DNA of 64,000 nt from NCBI GenBank assembly GCA_945893145.1, contig CAMDDZ010000025.1, forward strand, positions 196-64,195, written 5' to 3'. Positions within the stretch are counted from its first letter, which is position 1, and each line of letters begins with the position of its first letter. Below, in pieces: positions 3,044 to 27,548 of this stretch. This DNA is from Rhodoplanes serenus (GTDB lineage: Bacteria; Pseudomonadota; Alphaproteobacteria; Rhizobiales; Xanthobacteraceae). A program made the translations under genes and the position numbers. The notes below the pieces were generated by a model. The model saw only the letters and a list, made by a program, of their open reading frames with translations. It ran no database searches and was not told the DNA's origin.

Positions 3044-4603
3044 ATGGAGATGAGCGTTCCGGCAGGCAGCAAAGCCGCGACCGTCGAGCAGCCGAGCAAC
3101 CAGCACAGGGATCGCCGCAACGCCAGCGAGCTCGACGTCTGGCTGGAGAAGGCCGAGGCGATGGGCGAGCTCAAGCGCATCACCGCCGAGGTCAGCCCCG
3201 ATCTCGAGGCCGCGCACATCACTTATCTGGTCGGCCTGACCAAAAGCCCGGCGCTGCTGTTCGAGAACATCAAGGGCCATCCCGGCCACAAGGCCCTCTA
3301 CAACATGATCGGCTGCAACCTGTCGCGGTTCTGCCTGATGATCGGTGAGGAGCCGGTCGATCACCCGCTCAAGGCGGTGCAGATCCTCCAGCAGAAGTTC
3401 GGCCGCAAGATGAAGCCGATCGAGGTGCCAGCCTCGCAGGCGGTGTCGAGCCAGAACATCCTCGAAGGCGAGGCGATCGACATCCGCCAATTCCCGGCGC
3501 AGCGCATGTGGCCGCTGGACGGCGGCATGTATCTCGGCACCAACGACGCCGTCATCACCATGGACCCGGAAACCAAGCGGGTGAACGTTGGCACCTACCG
3601 GATGATGATCAAGGGTCCGCGCGAGATCGGCGTCTACACGTCGCCCGGCAAGGACGCCGGCGCCGACCGCGACAAATGGTGGAAGATGGGCAAGCCCGCG
3701 CCGATCGCCGCGGCTTACGGCATCGACCCGCTGCTCTTTCTCGTCGGCGCCACCAGCCTGCCGAAGACCGAGAGCGAGTACGAGTACTACTCCGGCATCA
3801 AAGGCTCGCCGATCGAGCTGTTCACCTCCGACCTCACCGGCCTGCCGCTGCCCGCGCACGCCGAGATCATTCTCGAAGGCCATCTGTATCCGGACGACAC
3901 CTTCGCCGAAGGCCCGTTCGGCGAGTTCACTGGGTATTACGGGCGGCCGAGCGGCGCCACGCCATTCATGCGCGTCGAGCGGCTGCGCTTCCGCAACAAC
4001 CCGACGCTGACCTGCGCGCTGATGGCCGACGGCCCTTCGAACGAGTGCGGCCTGTTCTGGGCCGCGGTGCGCTCCGCCGGTATCTGGGCCGATCTCACCA
4101 AGCTCGGCGTGCCGGGCATCCAGGGCGTCTGGTCGATCCCGGAGGCCGCCGGTTGGGGCATGACGGTCGTCTCGATCAAGCAGATGTACGCCGGTCATGC
4201 GCCACAGGTGATGGCGCTGGCCGCGCAATGCACCGCCGGCGCTTACTTCGGCAAATACGTGATCGTGGTGGACGAAGACATCGATCCGACCAACATCGGC
4301 CAGGTGCTGTGGGCGATGGCGACGCGCTCACGCCCGGCGCACTCGATCGATATCCTGCGCGAGACCTGGAGCACGTTCCTCGATCCCAGCCAGAACCCGC
4401 CCGAGATCCGGCCGTGGGGCTCCAAAGCGCTGATCAACGCCTGCATGGATTTCCGGCACATCAAGAACTTCTCGCCGCGCACCAAGCTCGACAAGAAGAC
4501 CTACGACCAGGTGGCGGCGCGCTGGAACGAGCTCGGCTTTGCCGGCAAGGCGCCGGAGATCACGGTGTTCGAGGACAAGGTGAGCGCGAAGGAAATTACT
4601 TAA
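3044..4603 (+). CDS. UbiD-family (prFMN-dependent) decarboxylase
   Basis: 519 aa with UbiD-like blocks (LLFENIKGHP, RMWPLDGG.YLGT, GPFGEFTGYYG). AGGGAG lies upstream of the ATG. No ubiX is nearby. Confidence 0.8.
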   Translation: MEMSVPAGSKAATVEQPSNQHRDRRNASELDVWLEKAEAMGELKRITAEVSPDLEAAHITYLVGLTKSPALLFENIKGHPGHKALYNMIGCNLSRFCLMIGEEPVDHPLKAVQILQQKFGRKMKPIEVPASQAVSSQNILEGEAIDIRQFPAQRMWPLDGGMYLGTNDAVITMDPETKRVNVGTYRMMIKGPREIGVYTSPGKDAGADRDKWWKMGKPAPIAAAYGIDPLLFLVGATSLPKTESEYEYYSGIKGSPIELFTSDLTGLPLPAHAEIILEGHLYPDDTFAEGPFGEFTGYYGRPSGATPFMRVERLRFRNNPTLTCALMADGPSNECGLFWAAVRSAGIWADLTKLGVPGIQGVWSIPEAAGWGMTVVSIKQMYAGHAPQVMALAAQCTAGAYFGKYVIVVDEDIDPTNIGQVLWAMATRSRPAHSIDILRETWSTFLDPSQNPPEIRPWGSKALINACMDFRHIKNFSPRTKLDKKTYDQVAARWNELGFAGKAPEITVFEDKVSAKEIT

Positions 4604-7159: not shown

Positions 7160-7352
7160 ACGGTTGCGGCAAAAGGCTAGCGAACAGTGAATAACGAAAG
7201 GCTGCGAGGGATGGAAGGAATGACATCACCGTTCGCTATTCGTCATTCACGCCCAGCCCGCCTCAATGAACCGAATGACAAGGAGTTTCAGCTAGATCGG
7301 AGACGCCGAGGTGACGTGCGGCGATAACGCGCGCACCTTTTCGGGGGAAAGC

Positions 7353-8165
7353 ATGGATTGGTCGCTCGACCCAATCGGGCGTACGGTTGCCCGCTACTTG
7401 GACCGGCCTGTTGCCGGCTACGAGCCGTTCACGCCGAGCGACCCCGACGCGTTGCGCGCGACACTCGAGCCCGGCGATGTGCTGCTGGTCGAGGGCAACA
7501 ACCGCATCTCCGGCGTCATCAAGTACCTCACGCAATCGACCTGGTCGCATGCCGCGCTCTACGTCGGCCCGATCGGCGAGCGCACCACCGCTGATGGCGA
7601 ACCGCTGGTGCTGGTCGAGGCCAACATCGGCGAAGGCGTGGTCGGCGTGCCGCTGTCGAAATACCAGCGGCATCACACGCGCATCTGCCGGCCGATCGGA
7701 TTGACCGCCGACGATCGCGCGCGCGTCTGCATCTACACGGCCGAGCGCATCGGCTTCGACTACGACGTGAAGAACATCTTCGATCTGCTGCGCTACCTGT
7801 TTCCGCTGCCGGTGCCGCAGCGCTGGCGGCGGCGGATGATGGCCATGGGCTCCGGGCACCCGACCCGCATCATCTGCTCGGCGCTGATCGCACAGGCGTT
7901 CGAGTCGGTGCGCTATCCGATCTTGCCCAAGGTGACACGCGTCGAGAGCGAGGCGGCACGGCGGGAGATTCTCGAAATCCGCCACTCGTCGCTCTACGCA
8001 CCGCGCGACTTCGACATATCGCCCTACTTCCGGCTGGTGAAGCCCACGGTCGAACGCGGCTTCGACTACCGCGCCATGCAATGGGCCGATGTGGCGCCGG
8101 TCAGTTCGCCACCGCTGGTGGCTCATGCCGGGCCGGTTGCGGCCGCGCCGCAGACCGCGACCTGA
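7353..8165 (+). CDS. YiiX/DUF830-like permuted papain-fold (NlpC/P60 superfamily) protein
   Basis: PGDVLLVEGNNRISGVIKYLTQSTWSHAALYVG block typical of the family. GGGGGA lies upstream of the ATG at 7353. Confidence 0.65.
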   Translation: MDWSLDPIGRTVARYLDRPVAGYEPFTPSDPDALRATLEPGDVLLVEGNNRISGVIKYLTQSTWSHAALYVGPIGERTTADGEPLVLVEANIGEGVVGVPLSKYQRHHTRICRPIGLTADDRARVCIYTAERIGFDYDVKNIFDLLRYLFPLPVPQRWRRRMMAMGSGHPTRIICSALIAQAFESVRYPILPKVTRVESEAARREILEIRHSSLYAPRDFDISPYFRLVKPTVERGFDYRAMQWADVAPVSSPPLVAHAGPVAAAPQTAT

Positions 8166-8199: not shown

Positions 8200-8620
8200 G
8201 CCTGTGTCACCGATCCTCCTTGTGCTGCGGACGTGCGCGATCGCCGGGATTTATTCGGCGCCCGGACGCCGTCTCGTTGGTCCCTCGGGAAGCCCGAGGG
8301 GATGAAGCGCCGAGAGGCGCCGGGGCCATAGGCCCCCGCCAGACCAGCGGGTCCGGCACACGCTTGCGAGGCGCGCTGCGCCCGGTTGCGACCAGGCGCT
8401 CGCCTCTCGGCGCTCCATCGCGGCGTTCATAGGCCTCGGGCCGCGCTTGCGAACCGGGGCGCACCGCGCCCTGGCCGTCCAGCAGAGCTCCCTGCGCACG
8501 GATCGTAGTGTCCGTAGGGCGGGGTCCGAGCCTCCCGGGAGCGGGGTTGCGAAACCCGCCCGCAGGCGCCGCGTCCCACCCCGCCAGCACGACGCCTCAT
8601 GATGGCGCCCTCGGATGGGT
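8200..8620. repeat. GC-rich non-coding block of nested inverted repeats (REP-like cluster or structured RNA)
   Basis: Local hairpin CCCTCGG-gaag-CCGAGGG (8282-8300). A long-range 19-nt inverted repeat joins 8301-8319 (GATGAAGCGCCGAGAGGCG) to 8401-8419 (18/19 complementary). TTGCGA-containing units recur. No credible ORF. Confidence 0.5.
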
Positions 8621-8999
8621 AGGACAATAAACCTAGTGGACTTATTTGTTCGATTTGTAAAGTGAAAAAATTCGCGGGGCACGGCGGTTTGGGGACATCC
8701 GCTTCGCCCGGAAAGCGGACCATGTGCGCAAGTCCGGAATGTGGCGATAAGAGACCCATGCAGTACAGCAATAATGATGTTGCTCTGTTACGTCAGCGCT
8801 CGACCGCGCTCCAAGTAAAGCAACGGCAGCCATTTGTGGCGATACATCCCCCAACATCTGCCGCGACGTTGCAGCTTCGCGAACGGCAGAGGTGCCAACA
8901 ACAAAATTCCGATGCCGCCCCGTAAGACTCCGCTCATGACCATCTCATGAGCGAGCATCTTCAATTGGCAATGAGCTGTATTTTTTGATCTGATAGATC

Positions 9000-9458
9000 A
9001 TGACGGTCCACACGAAGCGTCTTCATCTGAATTATACGCCGACGCAACTATTCGACCTGGTTGCAGACGTTGAACGCTATCCGCAGTTCCTGCCCGGTGT
9101 TGCTGCCGCCAGAATTTCCAGACGTAAGGACCAGACGATCTGGGTGGACATGACCATCGGGACAAGCTTTTTACGCAAGCGATTTACAACCGTGGCACTG
9201 CTGGATAGACCGCATCGAATTGATATCAGCAGTCACGACCCGTTGTTCGAGCACTTTCAGCAAAATTGAAAATTCGAGCCTGCCAGCGAGGGCGGAACAC
9301 ATATCGAGTATCAGGTTAATTTCAAATTCCAATCACGGCTGCTGCAAGTTCTGATCGGAGGATTGTTTGCGGAGCGAGCCGCCGAAATGCTGGCCGCTTT
9401 CAAACAGCGGGCACGACAGTTGTACGGCGCTCCATCACTACCAGCAAAGAATGTTTGA
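9000..9458 (+). pseudogene. ratA: RatA/COQ10-type START (SRPBCC) quinone-binding protein gene interrupted by a single in-frame TGA (9267-9269)
   Basis: Both halves align along the whole E. coli RatA length. ...FEHFQQN*KFEP corresponds to ...LIGGWKFTP, so the stop replaces the conserved Trp codon. The same frame then continues to TGA at 9456-9458 (152 codons). Confidence 0.75.
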
Positions 9459-9527
9459 TGGGGGCCAGGGATGCAATCGCGCCCAGGCAATGATCATGCA
9501 GCCGTGCCGAGCCTGAACGCAAAGGTG

Positions 9528-10100
9528 TCAAGCAGGTTCTGGATGTTGGCCCCTGACGCAAACAGACGACATCGCACACTGTGAGCAGCGCCCTGACGGC
9601 ATAGCCTCTGGTTTAAGGCGGGGTTCTGCGCCGAGCGCGTACAGCATGTTTGCCATGATGCAGTACCCTGTGGCGGCGAACCAAACCATTGCACCTCCGA
9701 CAAACACGATGAACGTGGTCCACCAAACGCTATGCGCAAGCACCAGGATGGACGCAACCGAGATATTGATTCCCACCGCAAGATAGATTCGTCGCTCAAG
9801 ATACCAGCGGTCGGTTTGCATGAAATAAAGGTTCCAGCGCGTTGGAGTGTTGGCTCCGAGCATAGGCGTAAGGCCGAATATGCGGAGCGCATTCCCCACG
9901 GGACAAAATCCGGTGAGTGCCACATTGATGGACACAAACCCCGTCGCGGTCACGCTTAGAATCCAGATCGGCTGAAGCAGCAGAGCCAATGCCGCGCCGG
10001 TCAACAGAACAGCGCCAGCGATCAGCCAAACGGTTCTTTCGATATACCAACGGTGAGTGGGAACGATGTAAACGCCTGTGCGGAGCGTCATGATGTTCAC
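9528..10100 (-). CDS. membrane protein with two tandem DUF2892 (YgaP-like) domains
   Basis: Two repeats of the pattern RWY.ER....G....(TM)....TG(F/Y)C, i.e. ...ALTGFCPVGN and ...AATGYCIMAN. Lies downstream of menA on the same strand. Confidence 0.7.
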   Translation of the reverse strand: MNIMTLRTGVYIVPTHRWYIERTVWLIAGAVLLTGAALALLLQPIWILSVTATGFVSINVALTGFCPVGNALRIFGLTPMLGANTPTRWNLYFMQTDRWYLERRIYLAVGINISVASILVLAHSVWWTTFIVFVGGAMVWFAATGYCIMANMLYALGAEPRLKPEAMPSGRCSQCAMSSVCVRGQHPEPA

Positions 10101-10233
10101 CGTCGAAGAGTTAGGACAAAACCGGGTTCAGTCGACACCGCAAAGCGAACGTATCACGGGACGGCAGTTTTCGCCAGGAGGTGACTCGCTCAGCGGTGGC
10201 GCTGGCTCACCGCTGGAACGTGATCGCTCAAGA

Positions 10234-11178
10234 TTAGAGCATCAACCCGAGAGCGAGCATGATGCTAAAAAGGAATTGCAACTGCACAGTCTGAACAAGA
10301 ATTCGATTGAAGATCGGACCGCGCGGCTCATGGGCAAATCGGTAAATGAGTGCCCCCGCCAATGGCAACGCGATAAATGTCGTCCAGACATGTCCGTGCG
10401 GCAGGGTGCGCGCAATGAGGGGCAGCAACGCGAATGGCAGCAACGTCAACCCAGCGTAAATCCAGATTGTGATACGTGGGCCAGCGACAATCGCAAGAGT
10501 CTTTCGGCCGACACGTGTGTCCACTTGGATATCACGATGGTTGTTGACCAGCAGCACCGCTGCCGTCAGCGATCCCACTGCGGCGCCGGCGACGACGGCA
10601 GCTGACGTCAAATGCCCGGTGCAAAGCAAATACGTCCCACCCACGGCACCCAAGCCAAAGAATGCCACGACGAACAGTTCTGCAAACGGAGTATAGGCAA
10701 TCGGAAAAGGACCGCCGGTATAGCCCCAGCCAGACACAATCGACATGACACCCAGTACCAGAATCGGCCAGCCACCGACGAACGCGAGATAGAGGCCCAT
10801 GATCCCCGCCAGCGCGAAGCAAATAATCGCACTGCGATTGACGACGGCGGCGCTCAACAAGCCAGAGCCGGTGGCTCTCGGTGGTCCTATGCGATCAGGG
10901 CCGTCGCCGCCACGCGTGGAATCGGCTGCGTCATTGTGCAAATTAGTCCCGAGCTGAATTAGCGCGCTAGCGACAATGGCTGCCGCAATCGCCCACCAAT
11001 GAACCTTTTTTTCTGCTGCCCAGGCAACAGCTGCGCCAACCGCCACGGGCGTCATCGAAAGACTGAGCGTGCGCGGACGCGCCGCCGTGATCCAGGACGA
11101 CAGGTTCATAACTACGCTCGTCGGCCGATCTACAAACCTTGGCACCGCATGGCGCGATTGGGAAGGCGTGACGCTCAT
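10234..11178 (-). CDS. menA: 1,4-dihydroxy-2-naphthoate polyprenyltransferase-like UbiA-superfamily enzyme
   Basis: NLHNDAADSTRGGD and NNHRDIQVDTRVGRKTLA match the MenA motifs NLANDYGDAVKGSD and NNLRDINSD...GK.TL. About 9 TM helices. The start is uncertain (11178 or 11109); the track start at 11376 is unlikely. Confidence 0.75.
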   Translation of the reverse strand: MSVTPSQSRHAVPRFVDRPTSVVMNLSSWITAARPRTLSLSMTPVAVGAAVAWAAEKKVHWWAIAAAIVASALIQLGTNLHNDAADSTRGGDGPDRIGPPRATGSGLLSAAVVNRSAIICFALAGIMGLYLAFVGGWPILVLGVMSIVSGWGYTGGPFPIAYTPFAELFVVAFFGLGAVGGTYLLCTGHLTSAAVVAGAAVGSLTAAVLLVNNHRDIQVDTRVGRKTLAIVAGPRITIWIYAGLTLLPFALLPLIARTLPHGHVWTTFIALPLAGALIYRFAHEPRGPIFNRILVQTVQLQFLFSIMLALGLML

Positions 11179-11332
11179 CAGTACCGCCGTGCAAGCCGGG
11201 GGCATTGGCCCAGGGTTGTAATAGTTCGACAGGCGATTGTGACGGGCGACGCAGTTGCCCGGCTGCGGGCTTGCCTTACCCGGGCGATTTGAGGAAACGG
11301 ATGCGATCGTTGCGGGTGCTAATTTGGGCAAG

Positions 11333-11348
11333 TGTTCAATATTGAACA
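11333..11348. promoter_or_regulatory. perfect 16-bp palindrome TGTTCAATATTGAACA in the divergent menA / cytochrome-operon control region
   Basis: Read directly. It lies about 155 bp upstream of the likely menA start and about 185 bp upstream of the 11532 ATG. Confidence 0.5.
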
Positions 11349-11531
11349 GACAGCTTGCGGCCTGTGAACGCATCATTCGTAAATGCGGTCCGGTCGCTGG
11401 ACTACAGGATTGTTAAACGCGTCTATACCGCGCTGTTCCCCTCTACCTCAGGCGCGGCGGGTGCGTCGCTCCAAATCGGCCGCGCGATCCGGCCGTCGTC
11501 TGTTAGACGTTACAGCGGGTGAGGTGCCGCG

Positions 11532-12110
11532 ATGCAACTGAACCGCTGGAAATTCATTCTTGTATTGCTTGCAGCCGGTGGCGCGGCGGGCGCCGCAGCG
11601 GTCATTACCACCGTTGAGGTCAATCGCCACACCTCGACTGAGGTCTTCTGCACCTCTTGTCACAGCATGGCCAACTTGGCGAACGATCCGCATTACTTGC
11701 GGTCGGCACATCGTAGCAATCCGCAGGGCGTCAGGCCGAGTTGCGGCGACTGCCACATTCCCAAATCGAACTGGTTTGTCGAGACATACGTGCATGTCAG
11801 TTCGGGGGCACGTGACGTCATCGCCGAGTTTACGAACAGTTTCGACGATCCGAAGATTTGGGAGGCGCGACGCGTCGCGCTCGCACATGAGGTGCGCGAC
11901 CTCATGCGCCGCCAGGACAGCGTGACCTGTCGAAGCTGTCACGCCGCCGCCGACATTCGCCCTGCGAGCGAACGCGGGCAAGCGGCCCATGCGCTGCTGC
12001 GCGAGAGCCGTATGACCTGCATCGATTGCCATTTCAATCTCGTTCATGCCCCGGTGCCGCCGACGGCAGAATTCATTCGCGGCTCGCGGCTCGGCGCAGA
12101 GACCAAGTGA
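11532..12110 (+). CDS. NapC/NirT/NrfH-family membrane-anchored tetrahaem cytochrome c (quinol dehydrogenase type)
   Basis: N-terminal TM anchor plus four CXXCH motifs (CTSCH, CGDCH, CRSCH, CIDCH) in 192 aa. Confidence 0.85.
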   Translation: MQLNRWKFILVLLAAGGAAGAAAVITTVEVNRHTSTEVFCTSCHSMANLANDPHYLRSAHRSNPQGVRPSCGDCHIPKSNWFVETYVHVSSGARDVIAEFTNSFDDPKIWEARRVALAHEVRDLMRRQDSVTCRSCHAAADIRPASERGQAAHALLRESRMTCIDCHFNLVHAPVPPTAEFIRGSRLGAETK

Positions 12111-12129
12111 TCGAATCGGGGAGGATGCA

Positions 12130-13287
12130 ATGAGCTTTCAAAGCACGATACTTAAGCTCCTCGCGGCATCCATTTTATGTGGCGGCATCACGGCCGGAGC
12201 TGCTCTGCTGGTGAGTGCGCCGCATGCGCAAGACGCCGCGCCGTCAGCTGTGTCGCCCCCAGGCATGCTGTCAACTGTCGAGGTCCCGTTCTATGCCGAA
12301 TGGATAGGCTCGCCGCATGCGAGGCGGGCTGCGGAGCCATTCAATCACTGGAACAAGGAAGGTGCCATTCCGGTGGGGTGCGCACGATGCCACTCCACTC
12401 CAGGCTTCCTCGACTATCTGGGTGCTGACGGCACTGTCCCTGGCGTGGTCGACCACCCGGCGCCGGTCGGAACCGTTATCACCTGCGTTGCGTGCCACAA
12501 CACCAAAGCTCGTGCGCTGACGAGCGTGACGTTTCCGTCCGGCCTGACGGTCCAAAATCAGGGCGCCGATGCACGCTGCATGGCCTGCCATCAGGGCGTG
12601 GAATCGACCAGCAATGTCAACAAAGCGATCGCCAACCTTGACGACGATAAGGTCGAACCCAAGCTTCAGTTCATCAATGTGCATTACGCCGCGGCCGGCG
12701 CCATGTTGTTCGGAACCATGGCGCGGGTCGGCTATGAATACCCCGGCAAGATTTACATCGGCCGGTTCCAGCACCGCGAGCCTTATAACCGCTGCACCGC
12801 TTGTCACGAGACGCATACCACGGCGATCAAATTCAACGACTGCGCCGCTTGCCACAGGGAGGTGGTTGACAAGACCTCACTGCACAAAATCCGAGTGAGC
12901 AGGGATGATCGTGACGGCAATAACGACATCAGCGAAGGTGTGGCGCAGGAGATCGATCATCTGCGCGAGCGTCTGCTTGCCGCGATTACGGCCTACGCCA
13001 AGACAGTAGCAGGCAAACCGATCGTCTATGAGATCGATGCCTATCCATATTTCTTTGTCGACACCAATGCCAACGGTGTAGCCGACAAGGACGAGGCTCG
13101 ATTCCCGAACCGCTACAACGCGTGGACGCCGCGGCTGCTCAAGGCAGCCTACAACTATCAATTCATCACCAAGGATCGCGGAGCGTTCGCGCATAACCCG
13201 ACATATGCGGTCGAGCTGCTTTACGACTCCATCAATGATCTCGGCGCAAAGGTGAGCGTTGATCTCGTCAAAGCTAAACGTCCGTGA
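12130..13287 (+). CDS. periplasmic pentahaem c-type cytochrome with helical C-terminal domain, family unassigned
   Basis: Signal peptide. Five CXXCH motifs (CARCH, CVACH, CMACH, CTACH, CAACH) at about residues 84, 119, 150, 222 and 238. GGGGAGGA RBS before the ATG at 12130, 19 nt after the previous gene. Confidence 0.8.
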   Translation: MSFQSTILKLLAASILCGGITAGAALLVSAPHAQDAAPSAVSPPGMLSTVEVPFYAEWIGSPHARRAAEPFNHWNKEGAIPVGCARCHSTPGFLDYLGADGTVPGVVDHPAPVGTVITCVACHNTKARALTSVTFPSGLTVQNQGADARCMACHQGVESTSNVNKAIANLDDDKVEPKLQFINVHYAAAGAMLFGTMARVGYEYPGKIYIGRFQHREPYNRCTACHETHTTAIKFNDCAACHREVVDKTSLHKIRVSRDDRDGNNDISEGVAQEIDHLRERLLAAITAYAKTVAGKPIVYEIDAYPYFFVDTNANGVADKDEARFPNRYNAWTPRLLKAAYNYQFITKDRGAFAHNPTYAVELLYDSINDLGAKVSVDLVKAKRP

Positions 13288-13310
13288 CGATTTGCAGGCT
13301 GGAGATCAAG

Positions 13311-14333
13311 ATGACAAAGCGTTTCGCTGGTTTGGCTGCCGTATTCGGCATGATCGCGCTTGTAGCCACCATCTCGCTTGTATCTCCGGGAGGAGCGCAG
13401 CAAAAGCAACCGGACTCGGTCAACCCGTCCGGGAGCGTTCAGACCGAACAGCAGCTTCTCGATGAGTTGCGGAAGATTCAGGGCCGCGGCACGATCCCGG
13501 ACGTGAAATCCTACGTTCTTGAGCAGCCGGCTGGCCGCGAGTGGCGCATCTTTCACCAAATCTACCTGCATTGGATTGGTGGGATCGCAATCGTCGGAAT
13601 ATTTGTCTTGCTCGCCGTCTTTTACCTCTGGCGAGGCACCTTGCGTTTCGGCGCGCGAGCGGGCCGCACGATGCTGCGCTTTAACGCCTTTGAACGCTTC
13701 GTCCACTGGATGACGGCGGTTTGCTTTATTGTGCTGTCTTTATCTGGCCTGAACATTACGTTCGGCCGGCAACTGCTGCTGCCGCTGATCGGACCGGACG
13801 CTTTCAGCGCATGGTCAATGGCCGCGAAATACGCGCACAACTATCTCAGCTTCCCGTTCACGATCGGCGTGGTGTTGATGTTCTTGATATGGATCGCCAG
13901 CAACCTGCCGACGCGCGTTGACATTGAGTGGCTCAAGCGCGGCGGCGGGATGTTGGGCGGCGAAGAACCGCCTGCCTACAAGTTCAACGCCGGGGAAAAG
14001 CTAATCTTTTGGATCGTCGTGATTGGGGGCGGACTGTCGGCTGCGACTGGTTATTTCTTGCTCTTTCCGTTCTACTTGGCTGAAATTGCCGGGATGCAAG
14101 TGGCCCAGGTCGTTCACAGCGTAGTCGGTGTGCTCTACATCGCGGCGATGCTTGTCCATATCTATATGGGCACGCTTGGAATGGAAGGCGCCTTCGAGGG
14201 CATGGCGAACGGCGAAGTCGATATCAACTGGGCCAAGTCTCACCACTCGCTGTGGTATGATGAAGTAACGGGGATGACGGGCCAAGATAGCGCCCGCATG
14301 CGAACCAGCTCCACAGCGATCAAAACGGAATAG
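13311..14333 (+). CDS. FdnI/FdoI-like (formate dehydrogenase gamma-type) dihaem cytochrome b with N-terminal signal/periplasmic extension
   Basis: Blocks FERFVHWMTA, AKYAHNYLSFP and VVHSVVGVLYIAAMLVHIYMG supply four TM histidines. C-terminal GEVDINWAKSHHSLWYDE. GGAGA RBS before the ATG at 13311. Confidence 0.8.
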   Translation: MTKRFAGLAAVFGMIALVATISLVSPGGAQQKQPDSVNPSGSVQTEQQLLDELRKIQGRGTIPDVKSYVLEQPAGREWRIFHQIYLHWIGGIAIVGIFVLLAVFYLWRGTLRFGARAGRTMLRFNAFERFVHWMTAVCFIVLSLSGLNITFGRQLLLPLIGPDAFSAWSMAAKYAHNYLSFPFTIGVVLMFLIWIASNLPTRVDIEWLKRGGGMLGGEEPPAYKFNAGEKLIFWIVVIGGGLSAATGYFLLFPFYLAEIAGMQVAQVVHSVVGVLYIAAMLVHIYMGTLGMEGAFEGMANGEVDINWAKSHHSLWYDEVTGMTGQDSARMRTSSTAIKTE

Positions 14334-14420
14334 CCGGACACGAACGCGGGCAAGCGGCTCGTTGAGCGTGGTCGCCAGCTATTGCGTACAGGCGGCGGGT
14401 TGAAATGTGATCGCCGCGTC

Positions 14421-14480: not shown

Positions 14481-14514
14481 GCCCCCACCTTTGTCCGGTT
14501 ACACGGAGGGACGG

Positions 14515-15267
14515 ATGTTCGAAGCGGCCACCAAGGCCTTGGCCCAGATGACCTCGCCGCCGTTCCGGCGGGTGCTGCTGAAATCCATCGGACTTGCGCT
14601 CGTCATGATCGTGCTGATCGCGATCGGCTTGCAGCGCGTGCTGTCGTTCCTCGCCACGACCGGCGGGACCTGGGCCGAGCAGACACTCGGACCGCAGGCG
14701 CACACGCCGGCCGCTGTGCTGGTCTGGGTGCTCGCCATTCTGTCGGGCCTTGGCGTCATCACCGGCGCGCTGTTCCTGATGCCGGCGGTGACGGCCTTCG
14801 TCGGCAGCTTCTTCGTCGATGAGATCGCGGCCGAGGTCGAGCGCACGCATTATCCGGCCGATCCGCCCGGCCAGCCGCTCCCGCTCTGGCGTGCGTTGTA
14901 CGAGGGCACCAAGACCGCGCTGCTCGCGATATTGGTCTATCTGTGCGCGCTGCCGTTTTTGCTGCTAGCTGGCTTCGGCCTTGTCATCATGTTCTTCGCC
15001 ACCTCGTACCTGCTCAGCCGCGAATATTTTCTGCTCGCCGCCATGCGGTTCCATCCGCCAGAGCAAGCGAAAGCGCTCCGCTCGGCACACCGCGGCACGA
15101 TTTTCCTGTCCGGCATGCTGATCGGGATTTTCGTATCGATCCCGGGGATCAATCTCGCGACGCCGCTGTTCGCCATGGCGATGATGGTGCACATGCACAA
15201 GCGGATCGCGGGGCGGCGGATCGAGCTGCTGCCGCCGGTGAGAGGGCGAATAGCGAATAGGGAGTAG
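14515..15267 (+). CDS. CysZ/EI24-family (DUF540) membrane protein
   Basis: Multi-TM protein with a CysZ-like layout. GGAGGG RBS before the ATG at 14515. Confidence 0.6.
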   Translation: MFEAATKALAQMTSPPFRRVLLKSIGLALVMIVLIAIGLQRVLSFLATTGGTWAEQTLGPQAHTPAAVLVWVLAILSGLGVITGALFLMPAVTAFVGSFFVDEIAAEVERTHYPADPPGQPLPLWRALYEGTKTALLAILVYLCALPFLLLAGFGLVIMFFATSYLLSREYFLLAAMRFHPPEQAKALRSAHRGTIFLSGMLIGIFVSIPGINLATPLFAMAMMVHMHKRIAGRRIELLPPVRGRIANRE

Positions 15268-15320
15268 CGAATAGAGGACTGTCGCTCTTAACCATTCGCT
15301 ATTCGCTACTCACTATTCGC
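15246..15320. repeat. inverted arrays of four tandem heptamers (GCGAATA-type) forming a 21-bp stem across two convergent gene ends
   Basis: Left array GCGAATA GCGAATA GGGAGTA GCGAATA (15246-15273). Right array CATTCGC TATTCGC TACTCAC TATTCGC (15293-15320). Positions 15253-15273 pair with 15300-15320 (20/21). Both stop codons lie inside the arms. Confidence 0.8.
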
Positions 15321-16091
15321 CACTGATTTTCCCGGCCACTTGCAGATGTCGGCGATGATGCACTTCTCGCACAGCGGCTTGCGCGCCAGGCACGTATAAC
15401 GCCCGTGCAGGATCAGCCAGTGGTGGGCGTGCAGCATGTATTTTTCTGGAATGACCTCCAGGAGCTTCAACTCGACCGCGAGCGGATCCTTGCCCGGCGC
15501 GAGGCCGGTGCGGTTGCCGATGCGGAAAATGTGAGTATCGACCGCCATGGTGGGCTGGCCGAACGCCATGTTGAGCACGACGTTCGCGGTCTTTCGCCCG
15601 ACCCCGGGCAACTCCTGCAACGCCTCGCGGGTGTTGGGCACCTGGCTGCCGTGCTCAGCGATCAGCTTCTCTGACAGCGCCACCACGTTCTTCGCCTTCA
15701 TGCGAAAAAGCCCGATGGTCTTGATCAGGTCACGCACGCGCGCCTCGCCGAGCGCCGCCATCTTTTCGGGCGTGTCGGCAAGTTTGAACAGCGCGGGGGT
15801 CGCCTTGTTGACGCCGGCGTCGGTGGCCTGCGCCGATAGCACGACCGCGACAACCAGCGTGAACGGGTTGATGTGGTGAAGCTCGCCCTTGGGCTCCGGC
15901 ATGGCGGCCTGGAAGCGGCGGAAGGCTTCCTCGACCTCGGCTTTGGACCAGGGCGGCGTGTCGCCGTGCAACGCCTTCTGATCGGCCTTGGCTTGCGCCT
16001 TCGGCGGCTTCTTCCTGGCCGCCTTGCCCTTGCGCGCTTTGGTCAGCGCTTTGGCAATCCGGGCCTTCCGCTTCGTCGTTTTTGTCGCCAT
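15306..16091 (-). CDS. nth: endonuclease III with Lys/Ala-rich N-terminal extension
   Basis: HhH-GPD core and a C-terminal 4Fe-4S Cys cluster (C..C..C...C region CLARKPLCEKCIIADIC). N-terminal MATKTTKRKARIAKALTKARKGKAARKKPPKAQAKA. Confidence 0.9.
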   Translation of the reverse strand: MATKTTKRKARIAKALTKARKGKAARKKPPKAQAKADQKALHGDTPPWSKAEVEEAFRRFQAAMPEPKGELHHINPFTLVVAVVLSAQATDAGVNKATPALFKLADTPEKMAALGEARVRDLIKTIGLFRMKAKNVVALSEKLIAEHGSQVPNTREALQELPGVGRKTANVVLNMAFGQPTMAVDTHIFRIGNRTGLAPGKDPLAVELKLLEVIPEKYMLHAHHWLILHGRYTCLARKPLCEKCIIADICKWPGKSVANSE

Positions 16092-20214: not shown

Positions 20215-21024
20215 CTACATGTCGCCGAGGCCAAGCACATCGGCCATCGAATAGAGCCCGGGCTTCTGCCCGCGCGCCCAGAGCGCAGCCTTCAGCGCGC
20301 CGCGCGCAAAGATCATGCGGTCCTCCGCGCGATGCACCAGCTCGATGCGTTCGGCGGGGCCGGCGAAGATCACGCTGTGCTCGCCCACCACGGTGCCGCC
20401 GCGCAGCGACGCGAAGCCGATGTCGCCGCTTTTGCGGGCACCGGTCTCGCCGTCGCGGCCGCGCGCCGAGTGCTGCGCCAGATCGATGCCGCGGCCTTCC
20501 GCCGCCGCGCGGCCGAACATCAGCGCGGTGCCGGACGGCGCGTCGATCTTCTTGTTGTGATGCATCTCGAAAATCTCGATGTCGAAATCCTCATCGAGCG
20601 TCTTCGCCACGCGCTTGGTGAGCGCCGCGAGCAGATTGACGCCCATGCTGAAGTTGCCGGCCTTCACCACCGCGGCGCTCTTTGCCGAATCCTTGATCTT
20701 GGCCTCTTCGTCGGCCGAATGGCCCGTGGTGCCGACGATGTGCACCTTCCCGGCAGTGAGCGCGGCAAACGCCGTACTCGCCTTCGGCACCGTGAAATCG
20801 ATGATGCCGTCGGCCGCCGCGAGCGCCGCCTTGGTGTCGGCGGTGAGCGTAACGCCGTTGGCCGGCAGTCCCGACAGCACGCCGGAGTCCTGACCGAGCA
20901 GCGGCGAGCGCGCGTCCTCGATAGCGCCCGCGACCACGAGCCCCTTGGTCTCGGAAATCGCCTTGACCAGCGTACGTCCCATGCGCCCACCGGCGCCGGC
21001 GATCACGAGCCGCATGTCGGACAT
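20215..21024 (-). CDS. dapB: 4-hydroxy-tetrahydrodipicolinate reductase
   Basis: [17 protein letters not shown](P)-binding N-terminus and a DapB-like core (E.HH..K.DAPSGTA). Confidence 0.92.
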
Positions 21025-21111
21025 GAGTGAAGCTCCTCAACGGTGCGCGTCCGCGGAGATTACACGGCCGGCGCGGCTATGTCTTAGTGCGGCAGCTGCA
21101 GCCATTCGAAG

Positions 21112-21414
21112 CTAGGGCTGCGGACCGTCGTAACCGCCGATGATGAGGATGTCGGCGGTGGCGTTCGGCTGCCGCACCTTGATGTTGGCCTGGTACTCGG
21201 GCGATCGGTAACAGGCGAGCGCCTGCTCGTAGCTCGGAAACTCGATCACCACATTGCGGGCGCGGCTGGTGCCTTCGGGATTCTCGAACGGCCCGCCGCG
21301 GATCACAAAGCGTCCACCGAATTTCTTGAAGATCGCCGGATTGGCGGCGGCATAGGGCTTGTAGCCCTCCTCGTTGCTCACATCGACGCGCGCGATCCAA
21401 TAGCCCTTCGCCAT
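21112..21414 (-). CDS. DUF1330 domain protein
   Basis: 100 aa; KGYWIARVDV...VVIEFPSYEQALACYRSPEYQ is typical of DUF1330. Confidence 0.8.
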   Translation of the reverse strand: MAKGYWIARVDVSNEEGYKPYAAANPAIFKKFGGRFVIRGGPFENPEGTSRARNVVIEFPSYEQALACYRSPEYQANIKVRQPNATADILIIGGYDGPQP

Positions 21415-21435
21415 GACTGACTTACTTCTCCGTTG

Positions 21436-22068
21436 TTAGTGTCCCTGCTCGCCGACGCCCTCGATGACGACGAGATCGCATTCGGCCTTGCCTTTGCGTA
21501 ACGCGACAGCCGCCTGGTAGTCCGCCGAACGGTAGCAGGCCAGCGCCGCGTCATAGCTCGGAAATTCAATCACCACGGTGCGCGCACGCTGATGGCCTTC
21601 CATCACTTCGTAACGGCCGCCACGCACCAGGAAGCGCCCGTTGAACTTGCCGACCGGGCTGCCGATCGCGCCGCTATAGGCGCCGTAACCGGCCTGATCG
21701 ATGACATCGAGGTGGGCGATCCAGTAACCCTTGCGCACCGCCGACGGCAGCGGCATGCCGAAATGATCCGGCTGCGGGCCGTCGTAGCCCTCCACGATCA
21801 GAAAATCGCAGGCCGAGTAGGGCGCGCGCAACGGCCGGGCCTTGGAATACTCCGGCCCGCGGTAGAACGCTTGCGCCTCCTCGTAGGAGTTGAACTCGCG
21901 CAGCACATTGCGCGACCGCATCTTGCCCTCGACCAGCTCATGGCGGCCGGCGCGCGCCAGGAGTTTCGAGCCGAAGCGCTCATGCGCCGCGTCCGCCATG
22001 TCGCGATAGGCCTGGAAGCCTTGCGGGTCGCTGACATCGAGATGTGGAATCCAATAGCCCTTTGGCAT
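21436..22068 (-). CDS. protein with two tandem DUF1330 domains
   Basis: Two internal copies of the KGYWI.HLDV ... EF.SY..A...Y....Y pattern; 210 aa. Confidence 0.8.
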   Translation of the reverse strand: MPKGYWIPHLDVSDPQGFQAYRDMADAAHERFGSKLLARAGRHELVEGKMRSRNVLREFNSYEEAQAFYRGPEYSKARPLRAPYSACDFLIVEGYDGPQPDHFGMPLPSAVRKGYWIAHLDVIDQAGYGAYSGAIGSPVGKFNGRFLVRGGRYEVMEGHQRARTVVIEFPSYDAALACYRSADYQAAVALRKGKAECDLVVIEGVGEQGH

Positions 22069-22078
22069 GTCGTCCTCT

Positions 22079-22774
22079 CTACGGTCCGGCCTGCGCGATC
22101 TCGGCGACGATCGCCTCGGCGGCGGCCTTGGGGTCGGGCGCCTCCAGGATGGGCCGGCCGACCACCAGGTAATTGGCGCCAGCCGCGATCGCCGCAGCCG
22201 GTGTCATGATGCGCTTCTGGTCGCCGCTCGCGGCGCCTGCCGGACGAATGCCCGGCGTCACCAGCACCATGCCCGGCTTGATGATCTTGCGAAGGTTCGC
22301 CGCCTCCTCGGCCGAGCAGACAAGGCCGTCGATGCCGATGTCGCGGGCCTGCGCGGCGCGCTCGGCCACCAGCTCCGGCACCGTGAAGTCGTAGCCCGCG
22401 GCAGCCAAGTCTGCGTCGTCGTAGGAGGTCAGCACCGTTACGGCGAGGATGCGCAACGCCGAGTCGGCGCGCGCGTCGACCGCGGCGTGCATGGTCTGCG
22501 GATAGGCGTGGACGGTGAGAAAGCTCGCGCCGAGCTTGACCACGCTCTCCACCCCGCGCGCCACTGTGTTGCCAATGTCGTGCAGCTTGAAATCGAGAAA
22601 CACCTGTTTCTTCGCGCGCACCAGCTGCTCGGCCAATGCGAGGCCGCCGGCGAAGCCGAGCTGGTAGCCGATCTTGTAGAACGACACGGCTTCGCCAAGC
22701 CGCGCCACCATCGCGTCGGCAGCAGCCACCGAAGGCAGATCGAGCGCAACGATGAGCCGCTCGCGGGCGTCCAT
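22079..22774 (-). CDS. pyrF: orotidine 5'-phosphate decarboxylase
   Basis: LIVALD...FYKIG...[14 protein letters not shown] motifs. Confidence 0.92.
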
Positions 22775-22775
22775 G

Positions 22776-23354
22776 TTAGGCGATCTCCCGCGCCATATCG
22801 GTCAACCTCTGCGCGATGCGCTTGAGCAAAGCCGAGGCGCGCTCTTCCTTGAGGTTGTCCACTTCGTCGAACGCCTCGCTCGCGCGCATCACTGCAATCT
22901 GGTCGGGGATCACCAGCGCACCGCAGCCGAGCTCCAACACCTGGCGCAACGCCATGAGCGAACGCATCGCTCCGTAAGCGCCGTCGGATGCACCACCGAT
23001 TGCAAACACCCGGTTCCTGAACGCGGCAAGCGGCACCTCGCCGCGCTCACGCACGCGCGAGATCCAGTCGATGGTGTTCTTGAGCAGCGGCGTGATCGAA
23101 GCGTTGTATTCCGGGCTGGCGATAAATACGCCCTGGTGCGCCGCCATGAGTTGCTTGAGCTTGATCGCATTCAGCGGCGCGCCGGCGGTGTTCTCCTGGT
23201 CGCCGTCGTAGATCGGCAACGGATAGTCGCCGAGCGAGATCCGGGTGACATCGGCGCCCGCGAGCAACAGTTCCTTGCTCGCAAGCGCGGCGAGCCGCGC
23301 GTTGTGCGAGCCAGTACGGATCGAGCCGGCAAAGACCAAAACCTTGGGAAGCAT
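22776..23354 (-). CDS. NADPH-dependent FMN reductase family protein
   Basis: [14 protein letters not shown]...[14 protein letters not shown] flavodoxin-like FMN_red pattern. Confidence 0.8.
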
Positions 23355-23396
23355 GGGCGGCTCCGGGAACGTCCGCCTTGATTATCACAAAGAGCG

Positions 23397-24035: not shown

Positions 24036-24110
24036 GTAAGGGAAATGCAGCCCGCGGTTATACACAGCAATCGGTAACCGGTGCCGGACCGGGGGTCAAG
24101 CCGGAATGGC

Positions 24111-25250: not shown

Positions 25251-25402
25251 GCGCAGGCGGTCCCCGTCTCGCTTGCATGCAACACAAATCTGCAACGCAA
25301 ACGATTAACACACAAACGAGTGGCCCGGCGCTTTCGCACCGGGCCAAGGATCGTATCAGTTTCTAGACGATGCCATTTCTTGACCGTACATGGCGCCGGT
25401 GC

Positions 25403-27346
<1,944 letters not shown>

Positions 27347-27446
27347 AGTGTTAATCCTCTCTTTCGCGGCAGGCCGGCCGGACCCTGTGACGGCGTCCCA
27401 TGCGGCCCCCAAAATTTACACGTTTAGCGCCTCTGCGGCGTCTTGG

Positions 27447-27477
27447 CTCATATAGGAGAGCCCCATTTGGCCGCAAG
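27447..27477 (-). promoter_or_regulatory. sigma32 (RpoH)-type heat-shock promoter of dnaKJ
   Basis: Minus strand reads CTTG-N17-CCTATATGAG. This is an exact match to the alphaproteobacterial consensus CTTG-N17-CYTATNTNNG, about 100 nt upstream of the dnaK ATG. Confidence 0.8.
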
Positions 27478-27548
27478 GACTTGACGCCGTTGTTGGTTAC
27501 GTTCTCAGCCCCGCGGGGATAGCCCGGCGCGGGCCGGAGCGATGGCCG

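What the first reader, a model, noticed from the sequence alone, without database searches (positions are those of the whole stretch)
9528..11178. menA-like naphthoate prenyltransferase with a tandem-DUF2892 partner in a lineage expected to use ubiquinone
The UbiA-superfamily protein carries the two MenA-type Asp-rich motifs (NLHNDAADSTRGGD and NNHRDIQVDTRVGRKTLA) rather than UbiA-type ones. Alphaproteobacteria of this group are generally ubiquinone organisms, and no other men or mqn genes lie in the window.

The gene is followed on the same strand by a protein made of two DUF2892 (YgaP TM-domain-like) repeats. It is divergent from an operon whose first gene belongs to the NapC/NrfH family, and NrfH-type members of that family characteristically oxidise menaquinol.

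A nearby RatA/COQ10-type gene encodes a quinone-binding START fold. Together these suggest that the island supplies or handles its own low-potential naphthoquinone-type cofactor for the cytochrome module.
Basis: partly seen in the sequence, partly recalled or inferred. Interest (0 to 1): 0.7.

Follow-up and report, generated by a model that had tools for sequence, protein, structure and literature searches.

The report
MenA with tandem-DUF2892 quinone module
A horizontally acquired six-gene island in an uncultured alphaproteobacterium pairs a genuine menaquinone prenyltransferase (MenA) with an uncharacterised, very highly conserved four-helix membrane protein and quinone-reactive cytochromes, which suggests that the cell makes or handles a second, low-potential quinone for that electron-transfer module.

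Summary
Window 10234-11109(-) encodes a 291-aa MenA-family prenyltransferase: it passes the TIGR00751 cut-off, its only PDB relative is UBIAD1, and it is 45-57% identical to MenAs that sit in classical men operons. Window 9528-10091(-) encodes a tandem-DUF2892 protein. The pair lies opposite a NapC/NirT tetrahaem, pentahaem and FdnI-like cytochrome b operon. All six island genes have foreign codon composition (GC3 0.56-0.72, against 0.85 in the flanks).

Comparative genomics supports a functional module. In the closest MenA clade (soil, peat and lake Xanthobacteraceae-like MAGs), 29/33 loci have the tandem-DUF2892 gene next to menA. A Coq10/RatA-like gene is present in 18/33, and a quinone-reactive membrane cytochrome lies within 3.5 kb in 23/33. 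Starting from the DUF side, half of the loci have menA directly upstream. One locus has the DUF inside a complete menFDHBC-menA cluster.

Three corrections apply:
- MenA here is an alphaproteobacterial type related to that of known menaquinone-containing alphaproteobacteria, so it is less anomalous than stated.
- The NapC protein is not NrfH-type.
- The Coq10/RatA gene in this window is a pseudogene.

I could not determine whether DHNA is made or salvaged. The role of the DUF2892 protein remains inferred. This is a new variant of a known kind, of moderate interest.

The parts
10234..11109 (-). menA: 1,4-dihydroxy-2-naphthoate polyprenyltransferase family, 291 aa. An alternative upstream ATG lies at 11178.
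   Evidence: TIGR00751 scores 153.8 bits, above the 102.15 cut-off. UBIAD1 is the only PDB hit, E 2e-17. The 291-aa length is modal among homologues. 64/76 men-operon-conserved columns are kept. GC3 is 0.64.
9528..10091 (-). Tandem-DUF2892 (YgaP-like TM x2) membrane protein, 187 aa. It has 4 TM helices, invariant C66 and C147 (numbered on the 190-aa ORF from 10100), and a C-terminal R-C-x2-C-x5-C tail.
   Evidence: PF11127 matches in two stretches. Alignments A1 and A2 show the invariant residues. The AF2 model has TM pLDDT of 87-94. The gene lies next to menA in 29/33 close-clade loci.
9000..9458 (+). Coq10/RatA-type START-domain gene, a pseudogene. An in-frame TGA at 9267-9269 replaces a conserved Trp codon.
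   Evidence: PF03364 scores 60 bits on the N-terminal part. The alignment with 8 orthologues shows the lost Trp. The TGA is present in contigs of runs X1 and X2.
11110..11531 (.). Divergent intergenic (promoter) region between menA and napC. It contains a perfect 16-nt palindrome, TGTTCAATATTGAACA, at 11333-11348.
   Evidence: Sequence. The palindrome is not conserved in related loci and there is no FNR-type box. No sigma-70 consensus match was found.
11532..12110 (+). NapC/NirT-family membrane tetrahaem cytochrome c (quinol dehydrogenase type), 192 aa, with 1 TM and 4 CXXCH.
   Evidence: PF03264 scores 149.6 bits. TorC and NapC models score best and NrfH is below its cut-off. CXXCH count.
12130..13287 (+). 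Periplasmic pentahaem cytochrome c, 385 aa, with a signal peptide and 5 CXXCH.
   Evidence: Cytochrome_C7 and CIII hits. No PDB sequence relative. Motifs. Orthologues lie next to menA in L008, L030, L096, L124 and L151.
13284..14333 (+). FdnI-like dihaem cytochrome b (formate-dehydrogenase gamma family) with a roughly 130-aa N-terminal extension.
   Evidence: TIGR01583 scores 178 bits, above the 115.85 cut-off. 1kqf_C FdnI is matched at E 6e-27.
8640..14400 (.). Compositionally foreign island carrying the six genes above, inserted between core genes (C92 peptidase 7311-8165; cysZ-like 14491-15267; nth).
   Evidence: GC3 is 0.56-0.72 inside and 0.85-0.86 in the flanks. The flanks are core genes: pheT, nth, gpmI, dapB, dnaKJ, grpE.

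Best explanation
The locus is an accessory 'naphthoquinone module' carried on a horizontally acquired respiratory island.

MenA transfers a polyprenyl chain to 1,4-dihydroxy-2-naphthoate and so produces demethylmenaquinol. The cell's UbiE could methylate this to menaquinone.

The tandem-DUF2892 protein is a dedicated membrane partner of this step or of the resulting quinone pool. It is a four-helix pseudo-dimer with one invariant cysteine after each helical hairpin, probably at the cytoplasmic face. The Coq10-like START protein is a quinone chaperone in related genomes, but its gene is dead here.

The module is expressed together with membrane cytochromes that exchange electrons with quinones. 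In this window these are a NapC/NirT tetrahaem quinol dehydrogenase, a periplasmic pentahaem and an FdnI-like cytochrome b. This gives an otherwise ubiquinone-type cell a low-potential quinone for these enzymes.

Shown: family membership, conservation of the gene partnership, the link to cytochrome, hydrogenase and formate-dehydrogenase genes, and the foreign composition of the island.

Inferred: the substrate (DHNA), the product, the role of the DUF2892 protein, and the direction of electron flow.
For: MenA identity:
- TIGR00751 is above its cut-off and rival UbiA-superfamily models are about 40 orders of magnitude weaker.
- The only PDB relative is UBIAD1.
- Relatives at 45-57% identity sit in menF-menD-menB-menA-menC-thioesterase/menE operons.
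- 64 of 76 columns that are at least 95% conserved in those MenAs are retained.
- The NJ tree nests the clade in alphaproteobacterial MenAs.

Partnership:
- The DUF2892x2 gene is directly downstream of menA in 26/33 genome loci, and in 29/33 loci with at least 3 kb of flank.
- From the DUF side, 28/56 metagenome loci have menA directly upstream.
- In L132 the DUF precedes a 41%-identical MenA, opposite menF-menD-menH-menB-menC.
- In L143 and L154 it is next to a UbiE/MenG-type methyltransferase.

Coupling to quinone-reactive enzymes:
- 23/33 loci have a NapC, FdnI-like, HyaC or pentahaem-cytochrome b fusion gene within 3.5 kb.
- Some loci have the order FdhA-FdhB-FdnI-MenA-DUF-MobB-MoeA, and others have hydrogenase clusters.
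- In L124 and L131 the cytochromes and menA are co-directional, with gaps of about 15 nt.
- The cytochrome b is an FdnI homologue. From my own knowledge, E. coli FdnI carries the menaquinone site.

Other support:
- Two MAGs carry two menA-DUF copies each (L017+L019; L009+L030).
- The island has foreign GC3.
- A soil metatranscriptome holds 98%-identical fragments of the DUF gene.
Against: - No DHNA-pathway gene (menF/D/H/C/E/B) was seen in the window or within 8-10 kb of any close-clade menA. The substrate supply is therefore unproven.
- The close clade has a fixed Cys at position 163. Men-operon MenAs (35/36) and UBIAD1 have Gln there, which could signal altered specificity.
- About half of the tandem-DUF2892 genes are not next to menA. 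Examples are in Acidobacteriota, next to hyp genes or flavocytochromes, so its function is not strictly tied to MenA.
- The Coq10-like member is a pseudogene here, which may indicate decay of the module in this organism.
- No promoter, regulator site or expression data exist for this organism.
- The DUF2892x2 model has no structural relative in the PDB, so its mechanism is a guess.
Confidence: 0.6

Rival explanations
1. Ordinary housekeeping step of a complete but dispersed menaquinone pathway. The host is simply a ubiquinone-plus-menaquinone alphaproteobacterium, as some phototrophic Rhodospirillales and Hyphomicrobiales are. menA supplies the general pool, and the neighbouring genes are co-located by habit rather than forming a dedicated module.
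For: Alphaproteobacterial MenAs in general are not in men operons, including that of Phaeospirillum molischianum, which from my own knowledge contains MK-9. Catalytic and conserved residues are intact.
Against: The gene lies on a compositionally foreign island. Some MAGs have two copies, each in a different respiratory cluster. The gene is embedded inside Fdh and cytochrome operons. None of these features is expected for a single housekeeping gene.
Confidence: 0.2
2. Salvage enzyme. The host cannot make DHNA and uses MenA to convert DHNA or menadione-like naphthoquinones released by neighbours into a membrane quinone. This is what lactic acid bacteria and group B streptococci do. The tandem-DUF2892 protein could help to take up or deliver the head group.
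For: No men genes lie near any of the roughly 60 close-clade loci. [quoted passage not shown] The carriers live in soil, peat and lake communities rich in menaquinone producers such as Acidobacteriota and Myxococcota, which share a 71-77% identical DUF2892x2.
Against: Absence from 20-kb neighbourhoods is not absence from genomes. In L132 the DUF sits in a complete de novo men cluster, so it is not specific to salvage.
Confidence: 0.25
3. A MenA-derived enzyme with a changed aromatic substrate. It would make a different prenylated quinone or cofactor, not menaquinone, for the linked cytochromes.
For: Clade-specific substitutions occur at otherwise conserved positions: Q163C in 27/29, A48S in 28/29, and A183G. 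No men genes are nearby.
Against: The enzyme is about 50% identical to men-operon MenAs, with 64/76 conserved columns kept, including both Asp-rich motifs. Position 163 is already variable (Q/A/N/H) in the alphaproteobacterial sister MenAs.
Confidence: 0.1
4. A decaying, non-functional remnant of a transferred island in this particular organism.
For: The Coq10/RatA gene carries a nonsense codon and a second lost Trp. The island borders a multi-copy repeat.
Against: menA, DUF2892x2 and the three cytochrome genes are intact full-length ORFs with all family-invariant residues. The sequence is identical or nearly identical in two samples.
Confidence: 0.05

Closest known systems
MenA (1,4-dihydroxy-2-naphthoate polyprenyltransferase, EC 2.5.1.74) of the classical menaquinone pathway, and its animal orthologue UBIAD1
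   Same: Same family by curated HMM cut-off. Both Asp-rich motifs are present. It is 45-57% identical to MenAs encoded in men operons. UBIAD1 is the only solved relative.
   Different: It is not in a men operon and lies on a foreign island. It is paired with tandem-DUF2892 and Coq10-like genes and is embedded among cytochrome, hydrogenase and formate-dehydrogenase genes. It has a clade-specific Cys163.
Listeria/Lactobacillales FLEET locus with DmkA (a MenA paralogue) and DmkB, which makes a demethylmenaquinone dedicated to one electron-transfer route. L. plantarum uses the same route with salvaged DHNA.
   Same: The concept is the same: a MenA-type gene located inside the gene cluster of a specific electron-transfer module, and a possible dependence on external DHNA (PMC8837199; DmkA/DmkB details are from my own knowledge of Light et al. 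2018).
   Different: The host here is Gram-negative and the partners are multihaem and b-type cytochromes, not Ndh2/PplA flavoproteins. No polyprenyl synthase (DmkB) is present in the island. The DUF2892x2 and Coq10-like partners are absent from FLEET.
E. coli formate dehydrogenase-N gamma subunit FdnI (PDB 1kqf/1kqg), and the NapC/CymA/TorC quinol dehydrogenases
   Same: The island's cytochrome b is an FdnI homologue (E 6e-27). Its first gene is a NapC/NirT tetrahaem protein. These families exchange electrons with (mena)quinone pools (my own knowledge).
   Different: No catalytic formate-dehydrogenase, nitrate-reductase or TMAO-reductase subunit is present in this window. A pentahaem cytochrome sits between two quinone-reactive anchors, an arrangement that I could not match to a described complex.
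YgaP-like transmembrane domain (DUF2892, PF11127)
   Same: Two copies of the domain are present. Each is a helical hairpin followed by the G-x-C-P/I motif.
   Different: The domains are fused in tandem without a rhodanese domain. The proteins form one very tight family: only 297 representatives at 50% identity, mostly fragments. Identity is above 70% across phyla. In the paper library, DUF2892 occurs in only 5 papers; the two I read mention it only in gene-expression or mutant work, not in connection with quinones.
Coq10/RatA START-domain quinone-binding proteins
   Same: PF03364 domain. The gene lies next to menA in 18/33 close loci and also in Telmatospirillum and Azospirillum MAG loci.
   Different: Here it is a pseudogene. 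An association with MenA rather than with ubiquinone biosynthesis has not, to my knowledge, been described.

Membership tests
MenA (DHNA polyprenyltransferase, UbiA superfamily) | Score above the curated family cut-off, and better than other UbiA-superfamily models | tested here: met
   TIGR00751 scores 153.8 bits against 102.15. NF004751 scores 250 against 264, just below. UbiA, BchG and MqnP models reach only E 1e-5 to 1e-3.
MenA (DHNA polyprenyltransferase, UbiA superfamily) | Two Asp-rich motifs (N-x3-D-x3-G-x-D and N-N-x-R-D-x3-D) and a polytopic membrane topology | tested here: met
   N56-D60-D63-G67-D69 and N189-N190-R192-D193-D197 are conserved in both clades. A rough hydropathy count gives about 8 hydrophobic segments.
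MenA (DHNA polyprenyltransferase, UbiA superfamily) | Orthology with genes located in men operons | tested here: met
   It is 45-57% identical to MenAs flanked by MenF, MenD, MenB, MenC, MenE and a thioesterase.
MenA (DHNA polyprenyltransferase, UbiA superfamily) | A source of DHNA in the same organism (menF/D/H/C/E/B) | tested here: inconclusive
   None was found in the 64-kb window or in about 60 related 4-20-kb loci. Whole genomes could not be searched.
MenA (DHNA polyprenyltransferase, UbiA superfamily) | Catalytic activity with DHNA and formation of (demethyl)menaquinone | not testable with these tools
   Needs an enzyme assay, complementation or quinone profiling.
DUF2892 / YgaP-like TM domain (PF11127) | Pfam match above the gathering score; a helical hairpin with the conserved Cys motif | tested here: met
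   31.9 bits against 25.3, in two stretches. C66 and C147 are invariant. Helices 20-41/44-63 and 101-122/127-144 appear in the AF2 model.
NapC/NirT tetrahaem quinol dehydrogenases | PF03264 match, an N-terminal TM helix and four CXXCH | tested here: met
   149.6 bits. 1 TM and 4 CXXCH.
NrfH subfamily (menaquinol-specific small subunit of nitrite reductase) | Score above the TIGR03153 cut-off; partnered with NrfA | tested here: not met
   47.7 bits against a cut-off of 134.2. TorC and NapC models score higher. No NrfA is present in the island.
Formate dehydrogenase gamma / FdnI cytochrome b | Family HMM above its cut-off and homology to FdnI | tested here: met
   TIGR01583 scores 178 bits against 115.85. 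1kqf_C is matched at E 6e-27. No FdhA or FdhB is present in this window.
Coq10/RatA START proteins | An intact ORF with the PF03364 domain | tested here: not met
   The domain is present (60 bits), but the ORF is cut by a TGA at a conserved Trp codon.
FLEET-type dedicated DMK module (DmkA + DmkB) | A MenA paralogue together with its own polyprenyl diphosphate synthase in the electron-transfer locus | tested here: not met
   None of the six island genes is a polyprenyl synthase. This is a resemblance of concept only.

The most novel reading that the evidence does not exclude
The island encodes a two-quinone redox loop. The NapC-type tetrahaem protein would oxidise menaquinol, made through the island's MenA, at the periplasmic side. 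The pentahaem cytochrome would pass the electrons to the FdnI-like cytochrome b. That protein would reduce ubiquinone at the cytoplasmic side. The whole would be an electrogenic menaquinol:ubiquinone oxidoreductase. Two quinone-reactive anchors joined by a soluble cytochrome only make energetic sense with two different quinones.

In the same reading, the tandem-DUF2892 protein is a new quinone-linked dithiol/disulfide (or metal-binding) membrane redox protein that is needed for the naphthoquinone pool. It has spread between Alphaproteobacteria, Acidobacteriota and Myxococcota by gene transfer.
Probability: 0.1. Interest if true: 0.8.

Novelty: new variant of a known kind. Interest (0 to 1): 0.5.

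Why it matters
If correct, many uncultured soil, peat and lake alphaproteobacteria that are assumed to rely on ubiquinone alone carry transferable modules that add a low-potential naphthoquinone. These modules come together with hydrogenases, formate dehydrogenases and multihaem cytochromes. That bears on how these abundant bacteria cope with hypoxia and exchange electrons with humics or metals.

It also assigns a first functional context, menaquinone, to a tight and extremely conserved family of 'hypothetical' membrane proteins (tandem DUF2892) and to a Coq10-like paralogue. Both are easy to test genetically.

Tried and rejected
- Whole-genome search for men genes in carrier MAGs was not possible. 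The MenD search only showed that L132 is probably from Myxococcota, not an alphaproteobacterium.
- The look-up of L132 proteins returned no organism names.
- Core proteins of the window are singleton clusters without names, so the host could not be named.
- Foldseek of the DUF2892x2 model against the PDB gave only chance matches with E of 1 or more, such as TRPV channels.
- The pentahaem cytochrome has no PDB sequence relative.
- No tRNA and no Rfam family was found in the window.
- The promoter/terminator scan was uninformative.
- The search for a conserved regulatory box in the menA-napC intergenic regions found nothing shared. The 16-nt palindrome is specific to this window.
- Literature searches for DUF2892 (5 papers; the two I read do not concern quinones) and for menaquinone in Xanthobacteraceae or Rhodoblastus gave nothing usable.
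- RNA evidence is limited to two short metatranscriptome contigs on the DUF gene.
- I rejected the idea that the protein belongs to another UbiA subfamily (UbiA, haem O synthase, chlorophyll synthase, MqnP) on the HMM scores.
- I rejected the NrfH assignment of the NapC protein.
Full report
**What is there.**

The finding's coordinates cover two genes on the minus strand.
It encodes a 291-aa UbiA-superfamily protein.
- The second, 9528-10091 (or 10100 from a GTG), encodes a 187-190-aa protein.

Evidence on the two proteins:
- The first protein contains both quoted motifs. It matches Pfam UbiA at 111.8 bits.
- It matches the NCBIfam MenA equivalog TIGR00751 at 153.8 bits against a cut-off of 102.15, and NF004751 at 250 against 264.
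- Models for UbiA, chlorophyll synthase and MqnP reach only E 1e-5 to 1e-3.
- Its only sequence relative among solved structures is UBIAD1, the animal MenA orthologue (E 2e-17).
- The second protein matches the YgaP-like TM domain (DUF2892, PF11127) in two stretches.

Opposite menA, across a 420-nt intergenic region, runs an operon of three genes:
- a NapC/NirT tetrahaem cytochrome (11532-12110; one TM helix, four CXXCH);
- a secreted pentahaem cytochrome (12130-13287);
- an FdnI-like cytochrome b (13284-14333; TIGR01583 above its cut-off; E 6e-27 to E. coli FdnI, 1kqf_C).

A Coq10/RatA-type START gene lies at 9000-9458(+).

All six genes have GC3 of 0.56-0.72, whereas the flanking genes have 0.85-0.86. 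The flanks are core chromosome: pheT, nth, ada/ogt, gpmI, dapB, pmtA, dnaJ, dnaK, grpE, hrcA, rph, gshB, cysI and cysG. The six genes therefore form a small island of foreign composition, about 8640-14400.

The window comes from a lake-water metagenome. The host's DnaK, DnaJ, DapB and GrpE have no 90%-identical relative among about 15 billion proteins, so the lineage is poorly sampled.

**Is it a MenA?**

A scan of one genome per species returned 297 relatives, of which the best 80 were fetched.

Relatives at 45-57% identity come from Sedimenticola, Sulfuricella, Sulfuritalea, Chromatiales, tubeworm symbionts and similar organisms. Their MenA genes sit in classical men operons: MenF, MenD, MenB, MenA, MenC, a thioesterase and MenE, often with UbiE. 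The family is therefore bona fide MenA.

Of the 76 alignment columns that are at least 95% conserved in those men-operon MenAs, 64 keep the same residue in at least 90% of the window's clade. These include both Asp-rich motifs.

A neighbour-joining tree makes the window's clade monophyletic. It is nested among alphaproteobacterial MenAs from Rhodoblastus, Telmatospirillum, Azospirillum and Phaeospirillum molischianum. That group is in turn sister to the beta- and gammaproteobacterial men-operon MenAs.

From my own knowledge of chemotaxonomy, P. molischianum and Rhodoblastus contain menaquinone beside ubiquinone.

One clade-specific feature stands out. Position 163 is Cys in 27/29 members. Men-operon MenAs (35/36) and UBIAD1 have Gln there, while the alphaproteobacterial sisters vary between Q, A, N and H.

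**Is the DUF2892 gene a real partner?** Yes.

- In the close clade (65% or more identity; soil, peat and lake MAGs labelled Xanthobacteraceae, Pseudolabrys, Stellaceae and Roseiarcus), the tandem-DUF2892 gene lies directly downstream of menA in 26/33 genome loci.
- In loci from both collections with at least 3 kb of flank, the figure is 29/33.
- Starting from the DUF protein, a metagenome scan found more than 500 loci. Of the 56 kept loci with enough upstream DNA, 28 have menA directly upstream on the same strand.
- In L132 the order is reversed. DUF2892x2 precedes a MenA that is only 41% identical, and the pair is divergent from menF-menD-menH-menB-menC. The nearest named relatives of that MenD are from Polyangia/Myxococcales.
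- In L143 and L154 the DUF is next to a UbiE/MenG-type methyltransferase. In L094 it lies among hyp hydrogenase-maturation genes.
- A member that is 77% identical is annotated from Candidatus Angelobacter, in the Acidobacteriota.
- An exhaustive profile search of 1.84 billion representatives at 50% identity found only 297 hits, most of them fragments.

So this is one tight family, 70% or more identical across three phyla, and it is always annotated 'hypothetical'.

Structural features of the DUF2892x2 protein:
- The alignments show invariant C66 and C147. Each follows a helical hairpin and opens a short helix, in the motifs TGFCPxGN and TGYCIxAN.
- Conserved RWYIER and RWYLERR motifs precede the hairpins.
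- In most members there is a C-terminal R-C-x2-C-x5-C tail.
- The AlphaFold model has confident TM helices (pLDDT 87-94; helices 20-41, 44-63, 101-122 and 127-144). It has no structural relative in the PDB.
- By the positive-inside rule (inference), all the cysteines face the cytoplasm.

In the paper library DUF2892 occurs in five papers. The two I read mention it only in transcript or mutant work: once in an operon with trxC in Bradyrhizobium, and once as an H2S-induced gene.

**Link to quinone-reactive enzymes.**

In 23/33 close-clade loci a NapC-type, FdnI-like, HyaC-type or pentahaem-cytochrome b fusion gene lies within 3.5 kb of menA. Recurrent arrangements are:
- FdhA-FdhB-FdnI-MenA-DUF-MobB-MoeA;
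- a [NiFe] hydrogenase cluster with HyaC, RatA, DUF, MenA, a pentahaem-cytochrome b fusion and a V-type ATPase;
- the window's own NapC-pentahaem-cytochrome b set.

In L124 and L131 the pentahaem, cytochrome b, menA and DUF genes are co-directional, with gaps of about 15 nt. Two MAGs carry two menA-DUF pairs each. The Coq10-like gene accompanies the pair in 18/33 loci, and it also flanks menA in Telmatospirillum and Azospirillum MAGs.

1. The NapC-family protein is not NrfH-type. It scores 47.7 bits against a cut-off of 134.2, and TorC and NapC models score higher.
2. The Coq10/RatA gene in this window is broken. A TGA at 9267 replaces a Trp that is invariant in eight orthologues, and a second conserved Trp is also lost. 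The TGA is in the contigs of both source runs.
3. The absence of men and mqn genes from the window is confirmed. It is weak evidence, because alphaproteobacterial MenAs are generally not clustered with men genes.

**Most likely mechanism.**

MenA prenylates DHNA to demethylmenaquinol, and the cell's UbiE could then give menaquinone. The resulting low-potential quinone serves the co-encoded quinone-reactive cytochromes. In relatives it would also serve hydrogenase and formate dehydrogenase.

The tandem-DUF2892 protein acts with MenA or on the naphthoquinone pool, possibly as a cytoplasm-facing dithiol or metal site. The Coq10-like protein acts as a quinone chaperone where its gene is intact.

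The family assignments, the gene partnership and the foreign origin of the island are shown. The substrate, the product, the role of the DUF protein and the direction of electron flow are inferred.

The source of DHNA is open. It may come from a dispersed men pathway, or from salvage out of a community rich in menaquinone producers. Salvage has a precedent in lactic acid bacteria that need external DHNA for a demethylmenaquinone-dependent electron-transfer chain (PMC8837199).

A bolder reading is that the two quinone-reactive anchors, joined by a pentahaem cytochrome, form a menaquinol:ubiquinone redox loop. My evidence does not exclude this reading, but it does not show it either.

**Novelty and verdict.**

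MenA itself is known and is annotated automatically. New, as far as the searches reach, are three things:
- the conserved MenA / tandem-DUF2892 / Coq10-like trio;
- its embedding in respiratory gene clusters of uncultured alphaproteobacteria;
- the cross-phylum conservation of the DUF protein.

I rate it a new variant of a known kind, with interest 0.5.

Noticed in passing
window 9000-9458 (+): The Coq10/RatA-like gene is a pseudogene. A TGA at 9267-9269 replaces a Trp codon that is invariant in 8 orthologues, and a second conserved Trp (residue 33) is Gly. The TGA is present in contigs of both lake-metagenome runs.
   Followed up: yes
window 8220-8660: A GC-rich non-coding stretch is multi-copy in the source metagenomes (word depth 145-187, against 15 for the flanks). 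It contains an inverted repeat (8301-8319 / 8401-8419), and the assemblies break there. It borders the left edge of the low-GC3 island. No Rfam family matches.
   Followed up: partly
window 11333-11348: A perfect 16-nt palindrome, TGTTCAATATTGAACA, lies in the divergent menA-napC intergenic region. It is a possible operator, but it is not conserved in five related loci and is not an FNR-type box.
   Followed up: partly
window 11969-11986 and 14341-14358: An exact 18-nt direct repeat, CGAACGCGGGCAAGCGGC, has one copy inside napC and the other 8 nt after the cytochrome b stop codon, at the right edge of the island. This is unlikely by chance. It may be a trace of the recombination that placed the island.
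   Followed up: no
window 3044-4603 (+): A UbiD-family decarboxylase of native composition (GC3 0.90) lies 5 kb from the island. TIGR00148 is just above its cut-off, and the best similarity is to phenylphosphate carboxylase beta / VdcC-type enzymes. It scores well below the cut-off of the futalosine-pathway decarboxylase model.
   Followed up: no
window 20215-31738 (dapB, dnaJ, dnaK, grpE): The host's DnaK, DnaJ, DapB and GrpE are singleton clusters at 90% identity among about 15 billion proteins. The contig therefore comes from a poorly sampled lineage.
   Followed up: partly
L132:1-12546 (peat metagenome contig): A complete menC-menB-menH-menD-menF cluster is divergent from DUF2892x2-menA. 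It is followed by a small cytochrome c, an MtrB/PioB-like outer-membrane porin and multihaem cytochromes, which together look like a porin-cytochrome conduit. The nearest named MenD relatives are from Polyangia/Myxococcales.
   Followed up: partly
L005, L016, L029 (also L012, L024, L033, L128): V-type ATPase genes, a [NiFe] hydrogenase cluster and a pentahaem-cytochrome b fusion protein lie next to menA-DUF2892x2 in Xanthobacteraceae-like MAGs. This is an unusual anaerobic-style gene set for this family.
   Followed up: no
window 9783-10122 (DUF2892x2 gene), run X6: A soil metatranscriptome holds two 151-nt contigs that are 98% identical to the lake MAG's DUF2892x2 gene. This indicates transcription of a near-identical gene in soil and striking nucleotide-level conservation.
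   Followed up: partly
MenA residue 163 (window about 10621-10623): The close clade has Cys (27/29) at a position that is Gln in 35/36 men-operon MenAs and in UBIAD1. Alphaproteobacterial sister MenAs vary (Q/A/N/H).
   Followed up: partly
window 15245-15321: A cluster of GCGAATAG-type direct and inverted repeats lies between the convergent cysZ-like and nth genes. It is probably a bidirectional terminator hairpin.
   Followed up: no
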